A stretch of DNA of 63,994 nucleotides, filler included, from Reclinomonas americana ATCC 50394 (taxonomy: Eukaryota), in NCBI GenBank assembly GCA_048213135.1. It is 15 parts of 15 records of this genome, joined end to end, with 100 filler letters (N's around TTAATTAATTAA, not from the genome) between each part and the next. Parts side by side here need not be neighbours in the genome. Positions count along the whole stretch, not along the records: positions 47,904 to 58,508 come from AFZH01020056.1; 14 more parts are not named here. One strand, 5' to 3'. A model generated the notes under the pieces. The model saw only the letters and a list, made by a program, of their open reading frames with translations, was not told the DNA's origin and ran no database searches. Both the position numbers and the translations under genes were made by a program. Numbering within the stretch: position 1 is the first letter of the stretch; every line of letters begins with the position of its first letter. Below are positions 48,286 through 56,800 of the stretch, piece after piece.

Positions 48286-51200
48286 ATGGGTGCCGCACAG
48301 AATGGAGCCACTGGCAGTGGAAAGAGGTTTGTTTTTGCGGTAGCTCAGTTGAAGTTGTCAAATTTTGAATGTGTGCGCAGTGCTTCTCCTCCTCCACAAC
48401 AGAGGAAGAAGGCGTGCGATATGGCATGGGGAGGCGATGTGAAGGCACTGCGCGAGTTGGTGGCGCGTGAGGGCGCACAGACACTGCTGAAGAGAGAAGA
48501 GATGCATCGAACAGGCTTCTCGGCATTTTACTATGCCGCTCAGGGAAGCCATCTCTCTGTGTTGGAGTATTTGTGGGAGGAGAGTGGCGTTGGGCCACAA
48601 CTCGCACAACTTGTCAACGACTATGGCTACACGCCGCTGATGATTGCTGCTCAAAATGGTCATCTGCAAGTGGTAAAGTGGTTGCTGGCCGATGAGCGAC
48701 GATGTCCACCGGAGATGGTGCGGGCGGTCAGCAATAACCGTGACTACAATCCACAGTGCACTGCACTGCATTGTGCTGCCAAGAAAGGCCACGAAGCCGT
48801 TGTGCGACTCATCGCCACTCGCTTCCCCGACCTCATTCCCATGGTCAACAAGTTTGGCACGACGGCGGCTCAGTTGGCACGCCAAGCGGGCAAGCAACAA
48901 GTGGCCGAGTTGCTCGAGCGCCTCGCTGCGCAGCCCGCACCACCATCACCGCCACAACCGCAGGAACAACAGTTGCAACCTCCTCCCCCAGGTGCGTCGA
49001 TAGATAGGGGGAATGAGCTCTGGAGGGGGAAGAGAGACGAGGAGTTGTCTGCAGAGACAACGGAAGGGAGGACGAGGAGGCACAAGCAAAGTCACAAAGG
49101 AAGACGAAATAGAGATCAGTGCATTCAGTGAGATGCATTCGTTTTCACTCTTTCTCTCTCTCTCGCTCTCCCTCTCGCTCTCTCTCTCTCCGTACTTCAC
49201 GCTGTTCATCTCCTCACCGATCTACGTTGACATTCGCAGCCGACGCTGGGCGGGAGGTGAGACTCAATTGCTTCTCTGTGGTGTTCTGTCTCCTTCTCCA
49301 TCTCTGACCTCTCGTTGCCGTATGCAGTCTGTGGATGGAGCTGCCGTCGACCGACTCCAGCGACAGCCAGAGCTGGAGCAGTGGAATGAAGCCGCAGGCA
49401 GCAGCAACGGCGTAGGGTTTGTATGTTGCTAGTGCGCATTCTTCATAACTTATCACTACTGTGTGCTGAATTGTGGATGGGTGCAGTTCTTCTCCTCCTC
49501 CACAACAGAGGAAGAAGGCGTGGGTGATGGGGAGGGAGGGCGATGTGAACGCACTGCACGAGTTGGTGGCGCGTGAGGGTGCGCACACACTGCTGAAGAG
49601 CGAGGAGATGTACCGCGATGGCGCATCGGCATTTTACTTTGCCGCCTGCAAAGGCCATCTCTCTTCGTTGGAGTACTTGTGGGAGGAGAGTGGTGTCGGG
49701 CCACAGCTCGCGCAAAGGGTCACCGACTCTGGCTGGACGCCACTGATTGGGGCTGCCTCGAATGGGCGTCTGCAAGTGGTGGATTGGTTGCTTGCCGACG
49801 AGCGGCGATGTCCGCCGGAGATGGTGCGGGCGGTCGCCAGTGACCGGGACTCCTATCCACAGTCCACTGCATTGCATTATGCTGCATGGAAGGGCCACGA
49901 AGCCATTGTGCGACTCCTCGCCACTCGCTTCCCCGACCTCATTCCCATGGTCAACAAGTTTGGCAAGGCGGCCTCGCAATGGGCACGTGATTATGGCAAG
50001 CAGCAGGTGGCCGAGTTGCTCGACCGCCTCTCTAGGCAGTCAGTACCACCACTATCACTCCCTCAGCTACCGGAACAGCAGCCTTTCCCTGCTTCCTCAC
50101 CTCCAGGTGCGTCGCCTTGCATGCTACACTGGCTATCATTCGATTCACAACGTGTCCATCAGCTGCAGTAACCGACGCAACGCAGGAGGTGAGAATGACT
50201 CCATCTATTGCGCGCTTTATTCCTTTTTCAGAGGTAGTCGATCTGACATGTAACGATGCCACCAACTAGATTCATGCCATTGATCGAGCTAACTCCGGAG
50301 ACTTGCGCCTTTTGGGAGTTGCGCAGGCGTACGCACTCGGCGTTTCTTTCATTCCCGCTCATTCTGCTGCCATGCAGTTGGAGCGTCTAAAGAAGGCCGA
50401 CCACGAGGCGGCCCTCTTGCTGTCCAAGATTGATCCGAGGATATTTGGCATTGAGAAGCGCGCGTCTGCGGCGCCGTTGGAGACACCTCTGGAAGAGTTA
50501 CGGAGGAATGCGCAGCAAGCGCAGGCTGCAGTCGATGCTGTTCGACTTCAACTCGAACGAGAACGGCAGATCCAAGAACTTGAGCGACAACTCGAGCAGC
50601 TGCGCCGAGAGCACGAAGGCACTGCGGTGCAGCTGCAACAGCGCGTTGGCGAGCTCGAGTGCGCCAATGCTGTGCTTGAACGGACGACTCGCGCTACGGA
50701 GGAGCGTGCAGCGCAATTGGAACAAGCCAGGGCAGTGGCAGTCGACCGAGCAGCAGCAGCGGAGCGATTCAATGCCGAGCTTCGGCACACTCTTGATGAT
50801 GAGCGACAAAAGAACACTCAGCTGCAACAAAACATCGCCGAAAGGCAGCGACAAACTGCCGACCTCATCGCTGAGCGCGACGATTGGAAGCGCAAAGCAG
50901 AGGAGATGGAACGCCAGCTTCGTGCTCTCTTTGAAATGGACTTTCTCAGGTGATGCTCACTCTCTTTCGATCCCATCAATCGTGCGACGATGTTCCTGAA
51001 TCTCCATCGATTGCACAGTGACCGCCGTCCAATCTTGATGCTCACCGAGGTCGTGCATGAGATCATTCCACTGGCACTCGGCTCCCTCCTCCAACAACTG
51101 GTCCATGATTTCTTCCCTGGCGAATTCGACATTGAGCAACTCTGCCTCCCATCCCCGCCACCAAGGTGTTGAAGAAGACACTGCCTTGAATGTGTTCCCT

Positions 51201-53896: not shown

Positions 53897-56800
53897 ATGA
53901 GTGCCGCGCAGAATGGAGCCACGGGCAGAGGTGGCAACAGGTCTGTGCTTTGAGAGTGTTGTTTTTTTTCTTTCACCACTCTGTTGTTATTGTCTGACGT
54001 TGTTCCATCAGTACACGTCCTCCTCCTCCTCTTCTTCCTGTTCCTCGCTCACGTCCACGAACGAAGAAAGCTTGGGAGATGGCGGAGGAAGGAGATGTGA
54101 AAACATTGCGCGAGTTAGTGGCGCAGGAGGGCGCACGGACTCTCCTGCAAAGAGCGGAGATGTTTAGTGGTGGATCGGCATTTCATTGGGCCGCATGCAG
54201 AGGCCGCCTCCCAGTGCTGGAGTACCTGTGGGAGGAAAGTGGCGTCGGGCCACAACTCGCACTGCTGGTCGATGACAGCGGCACGACGCCGCTAATGGAG
54301 GCAGCTGTGCAGGGCGGTTTGCAAGTGGTGGAGTGGTTGATTGCCGACGAGCGACGATGCCCACCGGAGACGGTGCGCGCGGTCACCAATGATCGCTCCC
54401 TCAACCCCCAGTCCACTGCGCTGCATTTCGCCGCCATGATAGGTCTCAAAGACAATGTGCGACTGCTCGCCACTCGCTTTCCGGATCTCATCACCATGGC
54501 CAATAAGAAGGGCAAGACGGCGGCTCAGTGGGCACGCGACTTGGGAAAGCACGAAGTGGCCGAGTTACTCGATCGCCTTGCTGCTCAGCCACCAGCACCA
54601 CCACCGCCACAGCCGCAGGAGCGTCAGGCGCAACCTCCTCCCCCAGGTGTGTCGATATTGTGGCCTGATTGCACATCTCCTTGCCACTCATTCATCTGAA
54701 GCAGCCGATGCAGACCGGGAGGTGAGACTGCTGAATCTCTTCGCTGTTATGCTCCTGTCGTCTTTCTCCGTCTCTGACTCTCGTGCAGTCTGTGGATGAT
54801 TCTGCCGCCGACCGACTCCAGCGACAACCAGCATTGCAACAGCGAATCGAAGCCGCTAGCAGAAGCGGAGCAGGGTTTGTATTGCTTTTGCGCGTACTTG
54901 CATAACTTGCATTGTGGATTGAGTACTTGTGATGGTGCAGTGATTCTCGTCCTTCTCCTCCGCAACAGCGGAAGAAAGCGTGGGATATGGCGAGGGAGGG
55001 CGATGTGAAGGCACTACACGAGCTGGTGGCGCGTGAGGGCGCGCACACTCTGCTGATAAGGGAGGAGATGGGCTCGTATGGCCGCTCTGTATTTTACTGT
55101 GCCGCTGTGAATGGCCATCTCTCTGTGTTGGAGTATTTGTGGGAAAAGAGTGGCGTGGGGCCACAACTCGCACAAATGGTCACCTACGATGGGTGGACGC
55201 CACTGATGTCGGCTGCCTCCCGTGGGCATCTGCAAGTGGTGCAATGGTTGCTTGTCGATGAGCGACGATGTCCGCCTGAGATGGTGGGGGCGGTTACCGC
55301 AGATGGCCAGTGGACTGCACTGCATTACGCTGCCATGGGAGGCCGCGAAGACATTGTACAACTCCTCGCCATTCGCTTCCCCGACCTCATTCCCCTGGTC
55401 AACAAGAAGGGCAAGACGGCGGCCCAGTGGGCACGCGACGAGGGAAAACACGAAGTGGCCGAGTTGCTCGACCGCCTCGCTGCGGAGCAACAAGCACCGC
55501 CACCTCAGGCGCTACCACAGCAAGCTCATCCGGATTCCTCTCCTCCAGGTGCATCGATTTACGCCGTGCACACATTTTGTGAGTCTGACATGTATGCTCA
55601 TCTCTTCAGCACTTGCATCGTTTGCAGCAAGCGACGCAACGCAGCAGGTGATGACGGCTCTCCGTCTCCTCCCTCTGATTTGTCATCTTCTTCGGTCACT
55701 CGTCTCACAAGTGCTACGTGCAGGTTGCTGCGGCTGTCGATGCCGCTCGACCCAGAAGCGAGCTCGACGCCGTGAAACAGGAGCGGGAGCTGCAGCAGCA
55801 GGAGTGGGACCGGCGGCGCCGAGAGCACGAGAGCACCGTGGCGCAGCTGCATCAGCGCCTTGGTCAGCTGGAGGAGAATGCGGCTCTTCACCAACGAGAC
55901 GCGGCGGAAGCGGCTAAGGCACTGGCCGAAGTGCAGCGCGTCTCGCGCGCTGCAGAGGAGCGTGCTGCGCAATTGGAGCAAGCCCGGGCGGCGGCAACAG
56001 AGCGAGCAGCGCAGCTTGAGCGCGCTAATGGCGAGCTTGAGCGGAATATGCGCGATGCCAGGGCAGCGGCGGTGGCTCAAGTGGCGCAGCTGGAAGGCGA
56101 CAGAGCAGCCGTCGAGGAGCGAGTGGCCCAACTTCAACGCGACTTGGAGCACGGAACCAGAGCAGCCGAAGAACGATGTGCTGCCCTCGAGCAGTCGCTT
56201 GCCACCGAGCAGCAGCGATCCGCCGACTTGGCCCGCCAGGTCGATCGTCTCCGCCGCGAGTTGAGCAATCTGCAAGGTGTGTTTGAGCAGCAGAGAGATT
56301 TCTGTTCTTGTCGAAAGCTGTGTCTCATCCTGTCCTACTGTCAGCATCACATCCCGGCCGCTTGCGCAAGTACGGCTGGGCCGACGTGGTCTCCGCCACC
56401 GAGTCCTTCCACCGGCGATACAAGGCCGGTGAGGGCGGTCAAGGCGAGGTGTATCTGTGCTTGCTGGATGGTGAGGACGTGGCCATCAAGCGGATCGACA
56501 GCACCGCGCCGTGGGCGATGGAGTCGTATGATGCGGAGGTGCGCCATGAGGGAATGGATTTGATGGTTTTTGTACTCACTCATTTGTGTCTTACAGATGA
56601 ACACCATTGGGCGCTTACATCATCGCCGACTTGTTCCTCTGCTTGGATATGCAACGCTTGCTGAAGATGGAACGAGGGAGCGGTGTCTGGTGTATCGTGC
56701 AATGCGGTGAGTGGATGTGGGCCAGCGGAGGGCGGGGAAAGGCTTGAATTTGTGGCAGCGAAGAGTTGGGGAGCGTGAGTTCAGGTGTCTTCGAGTGATA

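What the first reader, a model, noticed from the sequence alone, without database searches (positions are those of the whole stretch)
48381..55548. Four ankyrin cassettes hypervariable at binding-surface positions: a natural DARPin-like library
Seen: the four ~175-aa cassettes share near-invariant framework ([36 protein letters not shown]). They differ sharply at the beta-turns (HRTGF/YRDGA/FSGG/GSYGR; NDYGY/TDSGW/DDSGT/TYDGW) and at helix-1 positions around AA (Y-AA-QG/F-AA-CK/W-AA-CR/C-AA-VN; I-AA-QN/G-AA-SN/E-AA-VQ/S-AA-SR; C-AA-KK/Y-AA-WK/F-AA-MI/Y-AA-MG). There are also loop indels. Known: these are the concave-face positions randomised in DARPins. Inference: diversifying selection on a non-self recognition surface.
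Basis: partly seen in the sequence, partly recalled or inferred. Interest (0 to 1): 0.85.

Follow-up and report, generated by a model that had tools for sequence, protein, structure and literature searches.

The report
Ankyrin heads of two tandem kinases
The four ankyrin cassettes are real and differ mainly at the usual ankyrin binding-surface positions, but they are two tandem binding domains in each of two neighbouring protist kinase genes, not a demonstrated recognition library.

Summary
Observation confirmed. Four ankyrin (ANK) cassettes of about 170 aa share 65-77% identity. Their framework is held by purifying selection, and their variation sits at the beta-turn and helix-1 positions that designed ANK libraries randomise.

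The locus is one 10.6-kb eukaryotic contig inside a window made of concatenated contigs. Each cassette is an exon bounded by AG and GT. With conserved flanking small exons they join in frame into two tandem paralogous genes. Each gene encodes ANK module, ANK module, coiled coil, protein kinase. The two heads are 55% identical. The two kinases are of different types, and kinase B resembles plant RLK/Pelle kinases.

Selection: surface omega is 2.1-2.2 against 0.26 for the framework, and M2a beats M1a by 2dlnL of about 30. Omega above 1 loses significance once surface codons get their own synonymous rate (omega 1.4). The cassettes also show a gene-conversion mosaic.

Only one further family member was found, an EST-derived protein of Reclinomonas americana. 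Neither "library" nor "non-self recognition" is shown. No RNA data, whole genome or population data were available.

The parts
48286..53556 (+). Gene A (inferred model, 15 exons, 1148 aa): short first exon, ANK module 1, linker, ANK module 2, coiled coil, about 230 aa with no Pfam match, Ser/Thr kinase
   Evidence: All 14 introns are GT-AG and the ORF is open with one terminal stop. Pfam Ank and Pkinase hits on exons. No RNA evidence.
48286..48326 (+). Gene A exon 1, 41 nt ([13 protein letters not shown]..), ends in phase 2, donor GTTTGT
   Evidence: 80% identical to exon 1 of gene B in ungapped columns, against 50-59% for flanking non-coding DNA.
48381..48991 (+). Cassette 1 exon (611 nt), a 5-repeat ANK module; ANK fold spans about 48421-48930
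49240..49256 (+). 17-nt micro-exon after cassette 1 (restores phase 0)
   Evidence: AG/GT bounded. 76% identical to its gene B counterpart, against 55-58% for flanking introns.
49328..49416 (+). 89-nt linker exon joining module 1 to module 2 in frame; its 3' half resembles exon 1
   Evidence: family D9; 78% identity to gene B's 86-nt counterpart
49487..50106 (+). Cassette 2 exon (620 nt), ANK module 2 of gene A
50169..50188 (+). 20-nt micro-exon after cassette 2
   Evidence: family D8; 85% identity to gene B counterpart
50327..50949 (+). Coiled-coil exon of gene A (start could instead be 50378)
   Evidence: Weak coiled-coil Pfam matches only. Partly homologous to gene B's coiled coil.
51221..51912 (+). 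Three exons (51221-51491, 51555-51732, 51796-51912) encoding about 190 aa with no Pfam match, running into the kinase N-lobe
   Evidence: 0 families at E<=1
51981..53556 (+). Kinase A exons (VAYK lysine, HRDLKPQN, DFG, APE present; glycine loop degenerate)
   Evidence: best solved relatives are generic Ser/Thr kinases: CDK6, NEK7
53897..57636 (+). Gene B (inferred model, 12 exons, 928 aa): short first exon, ANK module 3, linker, ANK module 4, coiled coil, RLK/Pelle-like kinase; 3' end uncertain
   Evidence: All 11 introns are GT-AG and there is one terminal stop. The downstream frame to 57779 could not be joined in frame.
53897..53940 (+). Gene B exon 1, 44 nt ([14 protein letters not shown]..), ends in phase 2
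54012..54646 (+). Cassette 3 exon (635 nt), ANK module 1 of gene B
54705..54721 (+). 17-nt micro-exon after cassette 3
54789..54874 (+). 86-nt linker exon of gene B
54941..55548 (+). Cassette 4 exon (608 nt), ANK module 2 of gene B
55628..55647 (+). 20-nt micro-exon after cassette 4
55724..56276 (+). Coiled-coil exon of gene B
56345..57636 (+). Kinase B exons (56345-56538, 56597-56706, 56959-57076, 57175-57282, 57343-57636) with [20 protein letters not shown] and DFG
   Evidence: Best solved relatives are plant receptor-like kinases: BRI1, CERK1, SYMRK, RKS1.

Best explanation
The locus holds two tandem paralogous genes of a protist. The only close relative found is from the jakobid Reclinomonas americana. 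Each gene encodes a cytoplasmic kinase with a modular head. The order is: a short N-terminal exon, two consecutive 5-repeat ankyrin modules separated by a Pro/Gln-rich linker, a coiled coil of about 190 aa, then a protein-kinase domain.

The head arose by an internal 1.1-kb duplication of [first exon + ANK exon + micro-exon]. The head is now attached to two different kinases.

The ANK modules are the partner-recognition part. Their fold-determining framework, including unusually long conserved inter-repeat loops, is kept by purifying selection. The beta-turn and helix-1 residues of the concave face have diverged almost completely between modules, so each module most likely binds a different partner or substrate and brings it to the kinase. 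Segments of the framework (repeats 3-4) have been homogenised by gene conversion between the two modules of the same gene.

Shown: the repeats, the ANK fold, the position-specific variation, the purifying selection on the framework, the mosaic pattern and the frame-preserving exon structure. Inferred: the splicing, the co-inclusion of both modules in one protein, binding function, dimerisation through the coiled coil, and adaptive rather than merely permissive divergence.
For: Four copies at 65-77% aa identity, all matching Pfam Ank families.

AlphaFold model of cassette 1: pLDDT 88, pTM 0.82, five helix pairs. Its best PDB matches are 5-repeat designed ANK proteins, TM about 0.8 normalised by target.

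All cassette, micro and linker exons are AG/GT bounded and join in frame in both genes, although exon lengths differ (611/620/635/608 nt; 89 vs 86 nt). Between the two genes, exons are 75-85% identical and introns 40-58% in ungapped columns.

Heads are 54.8% identical over 666 aligned columns; the kinases share only 31% over 93 aa. Kinase motifs are present in both, with Pfam Pkinase hits on exons.

Framework motifs carry many silent differences: [15 protein letters not shown] has 9 of 15 codon columns changed, 8 of them silent; DERRCPPE has 5 of 8 changed, all silent.

Codon models: omega for the framework is 0.26 and for the surface 2.1-2.2; partition against a single omega gives 2dlnL 99-109. 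M2a against M1a gives 2dlnL of about 30, and 8-9 of its 10-11 top sites lie in the a-priori surface set.

The outside relative P0001 differs from cassette 1 at 17 of 23 surface positions but at only 13 of 112 others.

Mosaic: between nt 318 and 478, 9 informative sites group the cassettes by gene and 0 group them by position. Outside that interval the counts are 3 and 15. Max chi-square is 16.9, reached by 7 of 5000 permutations.
Against: No RNA evidence at all: no RNA run was listed. Splicing, co-inclusion of both modules and the start codon are inferred from frame and conservation only.

The EST-derived relative begins its ORF at the cassette's own Met. The short first exon may therefore not be coding, at least in that gene.

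Gene B's kinase ends early (..CTSW stop), and the downstream conserved-looking frame cannot be joined by GT-AG. Gene B may be damaged or the draft sequence may hold an error.

Omega above 1 at surface codons is not significant when those codons get their own synonymous-rate scalar (omega 1.4, 2dlnL 0.6). With local dS the Nei-Gojobori ratios are 0.39-1.57. Recombination and multi-nucleotide codon changes (48% of surface codon pairs differ at 2-3 bases) are both known to inflate M2a-type tests.

Only four sequences have DNA. What the modules bind is unknown.
Confidence: 0.6

Rival explanations
1. Permissive drift only. The surface positions are simply the structurally unconstrained residues of any ANK repeat. 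After duplication they drifted neutrally while the framework stayed constrained. No adaptive diversification occurred, and the modules may still bind the same or no specific partner.
For: With a separate synonymous rate for surface codons, omega is 1.4 and not different from 1. Nei-Gojobori ratios with local dS are 0.39-1.57. Passages read in PMC4308713 say these positions were picked for a designed library because they have the highest entropy among natural ANK repeats.
Against: With a shared synonymous rate, omega is 2.1-2.2 and omega = 1 is rejected (2dlnL 12-15). M2a finds 12% of codons at omega of about 6. P0001 and cassette 1 differ at 74% of surface positions against 12% elsewhere.
Confidence: 0.25
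2. The cassettes are members of a large, rapidly diversifying repertoire (a natural binder library) used for non-self recognition of prey, symbionts or pathogens.
For: Position-specific hypervariability with a conserved framework, plus concerted evolution. This is the pattern that passages read in PMC4986451 report for fungal NLR ANK repeats. A fifth distinct variant exists in an EST set. The head is attached to two different kinases, one RLK/Pelle-like.
Against: Only 4+1 variants are known. No other family member appeared in searches of 5.8 and 15 billion proteins or in a metagenome scan, although giant ANK proteins crowded the top-150 list. There is no population, expression or binding data and no NOD/STAND domain. 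Module identity of 65-77% is far below the >85% internal conservation used in the fungal work.
Confidence: 0.12
3. Alternative or mutually exclusive use. Each gene includes only one of its two cassette blocks per transcript, giving isoforms with different heads.
For: The blocks are phase-symmetric: cas+micro+link is 717 nt in gene A and 738 nt in gene B; link+cas+micro is 729 nt and 714 nt. All are multiples of 3, so skipping either block keeps the frame (computed from the exon coordinates).
Against: That symmetry follows automatically from an in-frame tandem duplication. The linker exon between the cassettes is conserved like an exon (78% against 54-58% for neighbouring introns), which fits its inclusion between two cassettes. 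No RNA data exist either way.
Confidence: 0.15
4. Four separate small ANK genes or decaying duplicates, unrelated to the kinases.
For: Each cassette has its own in-frame Met. The EST-derived relative's ORF starts at that Met.
Against: Every cassette ORF runs through a conserved GT donor. Conserved micro and linker exons keep the frame into the next cassette and into the coiled coil in both genes. Framework omega of 0.26 argues against decay.
Confidence: 0.05

Closest known systems
Designed ankyrin repeat protein libraries (DARPins; the ANK-N5C library)
   Same: Same fold and size. Foldseek's best matches are N3C-type DARPins, TM about 0.8 normalised by target and 0.66-0.71 by query, 24-31% identity. 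The variable positions coincide with the randomised ones. Positions 2, 3, 5, 10, 13 and 33 for ANK-N5C come from passages read in PMC4308713. Positions 2, 3, 5, 13, 14 and 33 for DARPins are recalled from Binz et al. 2003, which was not seen here.
   Different: These are natural modules inside kinases. Only 4+1 variants are known. The long non-canonical inter-repeat loops ([35 protein letters not shown]) are invariant. Repeat positions 1 and 10 also vary. 16 of 115 non-library columns are variable as well.
Highly conserved ANK/TPR/WD repeats of fungal NOD-like receptors (Dyrka et al. 2014, PMC4986451; passages read)
   Same: Conserved framework, concerted evolution by recombination, and variable or positively selected sites on the concave ANK face (inner helices and beta-hairpin).
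   Different: The unit here is a whole 5-repeat module, not single repeats. Module identity is 65-77%, not above 85%. No NACHT or NB-ARC domain is present; the output domain is a kinase behind a coiled coil. No repeat-number polymorphism or population data exist.
Ankyrin-repeat protein kinases (e.g. ILK, TNNI3K, RIPK4/ANKK1; names recalled, not tested here)
   Same: ANK repeats and a kinase domain in one polypeptide, with the ANK part as the partner-binding region. The database also holds ANK+kinase proteins such as P0009 (1229 aa, Pfam Ank + Pkinase, 28% identity).
   Different: Two separate ANK modules in tandem, a long coiled coil between head and kinase, and the same head on two unrelated kinase types. 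No close sequence relative was found among them.
Plant RLK/Pelle (IRAK-like) kinases
   Same: Both kinase B exons tested have plant receptor-like kinases as their best solved relatives: BRI1 at 9e-6, then CERK1 and LysM RLKs; SYMRK at 6e-5, then RKS1, BRI1 and FERONIA. The 'RKY..........F' stretch just before the glycine loop resembles the juxta-kinase motif of plant RLCK and U-box kinases (a recalled resemblance).
   Different: No transmembrane or extracellular domain; the recognition head is cytoplasmic ANK. No phylogeny was made, and the matches are weak single-exon hits.

Membership tests
Ankyrin repeat domain (Pfam Ank_2 / Ank) | Significant match to the ANK profiles above the curated cut-off | tested here: met
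   Ank_2 scores 63.6-78.1 bits against a cut-off of 27.3 for all 4 cassettes.
Ankyrin repeat domain (Pfam Ank_2 / Ank) | Stacked helix-turn-helix repeats with beta-turns (ANK solenoid fold) | tested here: met
   AlphaFold pLDDT 88.2, pTM 0.82, helix pairs in register. Foldseek probability 1.00 to many ANK structures.
DARPin-like binder library (natural analogue) | Common framework with diversity concentrated at the defined binding-surface positions | tested here: met
   16 of 20 library positions against 16 of 115 others have 3 or more states, p = 7e-9. Omega is 2.1-2.2 at the surface against 0.26 elsewhere.
DARPin-like binder library (natural analogue) | A large repertoire of variants | tested here: inconclusive
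   Four copies in the window and one EST-derived relative. No whole genome is held, so no census was possible.
Fungal-NLR-type hypervariable repeats | NACHT or NB-ARC (STAND) nucleotide-binding domain in the same protein | tested here: not met
   Pfam scans of the exons of both genes gave only Ank, weak coiled-coil and Pkinase matches.
Fungal-NLR-type hypervariable repeats | High internal repeat conservation (over 85% identity) with concerted evolution | tested here: not met
   Modules are 65-77% identical. A conversion-like mosaic is present, but the identity threshold is not reached.
Fungal-NLR-type hypervariable repeats | Positive diversifying selection at concave-face positions | tested here: inconclusive
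   Significant with a shared synonymous rate. Not significant with a separate synonymous rate for surface codons. Recombination is present.
Eukaryotic protein kinase | Kinase profile match and catalytic motifs (VAIK Lys, HRD, DFG, APE) | tested here: met
   Pkinase hits on exons of both genes. Motifs can be read in the models. Kinase A has a degenerate glycine loop. Kinase B lacks a clear APE motif and ends early.
RLK/Pelle (IRAK) kinase family, for kinase B | Groups with RLK/Pelle kinases in a kinase phylogeny | not tested
   Only best-hit evidence from two exons. The spliced protein was not passed to any search tool.
Mutually exclusive exon cluster | Exactly one of the similar exons is included per transcript | not testable with these tools
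   No RNA run was listed.

The most novel reading that the evidence does not exclude
These genes are two members of a larger family of cytoplasmic 'ankyrin-headed receptor kinases', specific to a jakobid lineage. In this reading a portable head (two ANK binder modules plus a coiled coil) is shuffled onto different kinase types. Its concave surfaces are kept diverse by selection while gene conversion maintains the framework. That would be a kinase-based intracellular recognition repertoire for prey, symbiont or parasite molecules, evolved independently of plant RLKs and of fungal, animal and plant NLRs.
Probability: 0.12. Interest if true: 0.8.

Novelty: new variant of a known kind. Interest (0 to 1): 0.42.

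Why it matters
If the divergence is adaptive, this is a natural case, in a deep-branching and little-studied protist lineage, of the design principle used for engineered ankyrin binders: a fixed scaffold with variable beta-turn and helix-1 positions, here wired directly to kinase signalling. The same head sits on two different kinase types, which suggests modular rewiring of recognition to signalling.

It would also add a non-fungal example of concerted evolution combined with surface diversification in ANK domains.

As it stands it is an undescribed but small gene family. The pattern is the one expected for ANK paralogues with different partners.

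Tried and rejected
Whole-genome search: no genome is held for this window, so no census of copies was possible.

Earlier findings look-up: nothing on this genome.

RNA evidence: no RNA holder was listed. The single run search was then spent, so no DNA read pile-ups for allelic or somatic variation could be made, and read laying was not used.

Protein searches:
- The near-length search gave 3 hits, of which only P0001 is close.
- The longer-length search gave 91 hits, all generic ANK proteins at 52% identity or less over short stretches.
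- The profile search of 1.84 billion representatives was flooded by giant multi-repeat ANK proteins. Only P0001 stood out as a single-stretch match, and family members scoring under about 198 bits would be hidden.

Metagenome scan with family-specific peptide patterns: 190 pattern matches, of which 1 was a weak generic relative at 31% identity.

ESM Atlas: generic ANK clusters only.

Third protein search, on a WD40 ORF from another contig of the window, meant to test whether the assembly is Reclinomonas itself: only generic WD40 hits at 31-51% identity, uninformative.

Literature: a search for 'Reclinomonas' plus 'ankyrin' found 4 papers, none relevant judging by title and abstract listing.

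Coiled-coil self-association: the job returned no verdict. It is evidence neither for nor against.

Pfam on the region between coiled coil and kinase in gene A: 0 families at E<=1.

My first column assignment for repeat 4 and for position 33 of repeat 3 was off by one or more. It was corrected before the likelihood analyses. The Fisher test (14 of 26 against 17 of 142, p = 7e-6) used the uncorrected columns.

I considered and rejected a bacterial or phage origin of the locus. The phage-like contigs in the window are separate pieces.

Joining gene B's last conserved-looking frame (to 57779) by any GT-AG intron failed, giving a stop or the wrong frame.

Full report
**1. What the window is**

The window is not one stretch of a chromosome. 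It is 15 pieces joined by an artificial spacer of 44 N, TTAATTAATTAA and 44 N. The finding lies wholly within one piece, window 47904-58508 (10,605 bp, GC 0.556). Only that piece counts as its surroundings.

The first three pieces (1-19540, GC 0.64-0.66) carry phage-like and bacterial domains and have nothing to do with the locus. No whole genome is held. No RNA run was listed. No earlier notes exist.

**2. The observation**

- Four copies of an ankyrin (ANK) cassette lie on the + strand, with start-to-start spacings of 1106, 4549 and 911 nt.
- tblastn finds exactly these four in the window: 65-77% aa identity, E 1e-67 to 7e-84.
- Each matches Pfam Ank_2 well above the cut-off.
- An AlphaFold model of cassette 1, built with a 5-sequence alignment, is confident: pLDDT 88.2, pTM 0.82. 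It shows an N-terminal half repeat followed by four helix pairs.
- Its best PDB matches are 5-repeat designed ANK proteins, TM about 0.8 normalised by target.
- phmmer alignments to solved ankyrin-1/2 repeats fix the repeat register: G at position 4, T/S-P/A at 6-7, AA at 11-12.

**3. Gene structure (inferred; no RNA evidence)**

Each cassette ORF starts just after a CAG acceptor and runs into a GTGCGT, GTGTGT or GTGCAT donor.

After each cassette comes a conserved micro-exon: 17 nt after cassettes 1 and 3, 20 nt after cassettes 2 and 4. Between the two cassettes of a pair lies a conserved linker exon of 89 or 86 nt. Upstream of cassettes 1 and 3 lies a short exon that begins with ATG (41 or 44 nt).

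Joined in order, these exons keep one open frame in both units even though the exon lengths differ. The frame continues into a coiled-coil exon and then into kinase exons.

| Gene | Span | Exons | Protein | Splice sites |
|---|---|---|---|---|
| A | 48286-53556 | 15 | 1148 aa | all GT-AG, one terminal stop |
| B | 53897-57636 | 12 | 928 aa | all GT-AG, one terminal stop |

Comparative support: between the two genes the proposed exons are 75-85% identical, while the introns are 40-58% identical in ungapped columns and carry large indels. Upstream of each cassette's Met, the '(R/T)KKAW' codons differ by silent changes (read directly). This argues that the stretch is coding in the first cassettes too.

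The 3' half of the linker exon resembles exon 1 (read directly). The two-module head therefore probably arose by an internal 1.1-kb duplication of [exon 1 + cassette + micro-exon].

The four cassettes are thus two tandem ANK modules in each of two neighbouring genes. They are not four independent units.

**4. The rest of the proteins**

- The two heads (ANK, ANK, coiled coil) align at 54.8% identity over 666 columns. The two kinase domains share only 31% over 93 residues.
- For both kinase B exons tested, the best solved relatives are plant RLK/Pelle kinases: BRI1, CERK1, SYMRK and RKS1.
- For the kinase A fragment tested, the best relatives are generic Ser/Thr kinases: CDK6 and NEK7.
- Between its coiled coil and its kinase, gene A has three exons encoding about 190 aa with no Pfam match.
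- Both kinases keep the catalytic Lys, HRD and DFG motifs.
- Gene B's frame stops at '..CTSW'. A downstream frame that looks like the end of a kinase domain cannot be joined by a GT-AG intron, so its 3' end is unresolved.

**5. Is the variation position-specific?**

Yes. I used repeat positions 2, 3, 5, 13, 14 and 33. This DARPin set is recalled from Binz et al. 2003, a paper not seen here.

Taking the four cassettes plus the outside relative over columns 1-135:

| Position set | Columns with 3 or more residue states | Other columns | Fisher p | Mean entropy (bits) |
|---|---|---|---|---|
| 2, 3, 5, 13, 14, 33 | 16 of 20 | 16 of 115 | 7e-9 | 1.44 vs 0.42 |
| same plus position 10 | 19 of 23 | 13 of 112 | 3e-11 | 1.50 vs 0.38 |

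Position 10 is randomised in the ANK-N5C library, whose set of 2, 3, 5, 10, 13 and 33 comes from passages read in PMC4308713.

In helix 1 the variable sites follow an i, i+3, i+4 pattern: columns 38/41/42, 75/78/79 and 118/121/122. These fall within or just after the modelled helices 35-41, 72-78 and 115-122. That pattern places them on one face of the helix, next to the variable beta-turns. I could not obtain the model's coordinates, so no 3D patch calculation was done.

**6. Selection**

The framework is under purifying selection; it is not merely young. dS across whole cassettes is 0.36-0.86. The invariant motifs are full of silent differences:
- [15 protein letters not shown]: 9 of 15 codon columns changed, 8 of them silent.
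- DERRCPPE: 5 of 8 changed, all silent.

I wrote a maximum-likelihood codon model (F3x4, 4 taxa, all three topologies) with an a-priori partition of 26 surface codons and 142 others. Results:
- Omega is 0.26 for the rest and 2.1-2.2 for the surface.
- Partition against a single omega gives 2dlnL 99-109.
- Surface omega = 1 is rejected with 2dlnL 12.1-14.6.
- M2a beats M1a by 2dlnL 29.5-30.8, with 12-13% of codons at omega of about 6.
- The 10-11 sites with posterior above 0.8 are columns 29, 31, 33, 41, 42, 68, 70, 75, 78, 145 and 156. Of these, 8-9 are in the a-priori set. The other two are repeat positions 1 and 10.

Against this:
- When surface codons get their own synonymous-rate scalar, the scalar is 1.5-2.0, omega drops to 1.4, and 2dlnL against omega = 1 is only 0.6.
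- Nei-Gojobori ratios using local dS are 0.39-1.57 (some columns there were misassigned).
- 48% of surface codon pairs differ at 2-3 bases, against 9% elsewhere.

The data therefore show that surface omega is far above the framework and at least about 1. They do not robustly show omega above 1.

**7. Gene conversion**

Synonymous distances do not fit a simple history. Cassettes 1, 2 and 4 are mutually 0.36-0.41 apart, while cassette 3 is 0.65-0.86 from all the others.

Parsimony-informative sites form a mosaic:
- 15 sites group cassettes by position (1 with 3, 2 with 4).
- 12 sites group them by gene (1 with 2, 3 with 4).
- 8 sites support the third split.

Nine of the twelve 'by gene' sites fall between nt 318 and 478 (repeats 3-4), where no 'by position' site lies. 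Max chi-square is 16.9, reached by 7 of 5000 label permutations. Three of the nine sites belong to one codon.

This fits conversion between the two modules of a gene across repeats 3-4. It is also a caveat for the site models above.

**8. Relatives**

The only close relative found is P0001: 154 aa, 63% identical to cassette 3, 69% identical to cassette 1 in alignment A2, and frameshifted near its end. It is an EST-derived protein labelled Reclinomonas americana.

It shares the framework, yet it differs from cassette 1 at 17 of 23 surface positions and at only 13 of 112 others. Its ORF starts at the cassette's own Met.

No other family member was seen in the near-length search, the longer-length search, the profile search, the metagenome scan or the Atlas search. 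One search's top-150 list was crowded by giant ANK proteins, so weaker relatives could be hidden.

Whether the window's organism is Reclinomonas itself could not be settled (one search was uninformative). A literature search for 'Reclinomonas' plus 'ankyrin' found nothing relevant (4 papers, listing only).

**9. Most likely mechanism**

Each gene most likely encodes a cytoplasmic kinase whose N-terminal half carries two independent 5-repeat ANK binding modules on flexible Pro/Gln-rich linkers. Each module has its own concave-face specificity. A long coiled coil follows (a plausible dimerisation element, not shown), and then the kinase.

The modules would recruit partners or substrates to the kinase. 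The invariant long loops may form a second, shared interface (inference).

Divergence at the binding face is either adaptive, towards different or changing partners, or simply permitted. I favour adaptive divergence at about 60:25 over pure drift.

'Non-self recognition' remains a speculation. Its only indirect supports are the evolutionary pattern, which matches what passages read in PMC4986451 describe for fungal NLR ANK repeats, and the RLK/Pelle-like nature of one kinase.

**10. Verdict**

The context (two ANK-ANK-coiled-coil-kinase genes) is new information.

It is an undescribed small family, a new variant of known themes: ANK-kinases, and surface-variable ANK domains with concerted evolution. 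Interest is moderate. It would rise sharply if a genome census showed a large repertoire.

Noticed in passing
window 7419-7518, 9120-9219, 19541-19640 and 11 further sites: The window is a concatenation of 15 separate contigs joined by an artificial spacer of 44 N, TTAATTAATTAA and 44 N. Neighbouring pieces are therefore not genomic neighbours. Many pieces end in (GA)n or (TC)n microsatellites, which are probably the assembly break points.
   Followed up: yes
window 1-19540 (three pieces, GC 0.64-0.66): Bacterial or phage-like content: Phage_connect_1 (466-1146 +), PG_binding_1 (11732-12667 +) and PAPS_reduct (17963-19495 -). This is probably DNA of a bacterium or its phage co-assembled with the protist, not part of its genome.
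   Followed up: partly
window 19739-20788 (+), a separate contig: An intron-free 349-aa WD40 protein with six Pfam WD40 repeats. Its best database hits are only 31-51% identical, and many come from cyanobacteria and metagenomes. Its origin, protist or bacterial, is unclear.
   Followed up: partly
window 57600-57780: Gene B's kinase frame stops at '..CTSW'. A downstream frame encoding a typical kinase C-terminal stretch ('..EDRPT..') runs to a stop at 57779 but cannot be joined by a GT-AG intron. This could be a draft sequence error, a non-canonical splice or a truncated gene.
   Followed up: partly
window 48286-48326 and 53897-53940: The short first exons encode MGAAQNG.. in gene A and MSAAQNG.. 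in gene B. The gene A version fits the N-myristoylation consensus (pattern recalled, not tested); the gene B version lacks the Gly at position 2.
   Followed up: no
window 51221-51912: Gene A has three exons encoding about 190 aa between its coiled coil and its kinase, with no Pfam match at E<=1. Gene B has no counterpart.
   Followed up: partly
window 38521-39288 (-), 21270-22031 (+), 32764-33327 (+); separate contigs: Polysaccharide deacetylase, EGF-like and LRR_6 Pfam matches on other pieces of the window.
   Followed up: no
window 58609-61321 and 45818-47230: Long TC-rich or GA-rich low-complexity tracts give spurious long ORFs in several frames (SLSLSL.. and EKGERR.. translations). These are not evidence of genes.
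   Followed up: no
P0002 and P0003: Two metagenome-derived ANK proteins, 33-34% identical, share a '(Y/L)LVEE.G(V/I).P' loop motif reminiscent of the family's '[10 protein letters not shown]'. One also carries a zf-MYND domain. They may be distant relatives of the head module in other protists.
   Followed up: no
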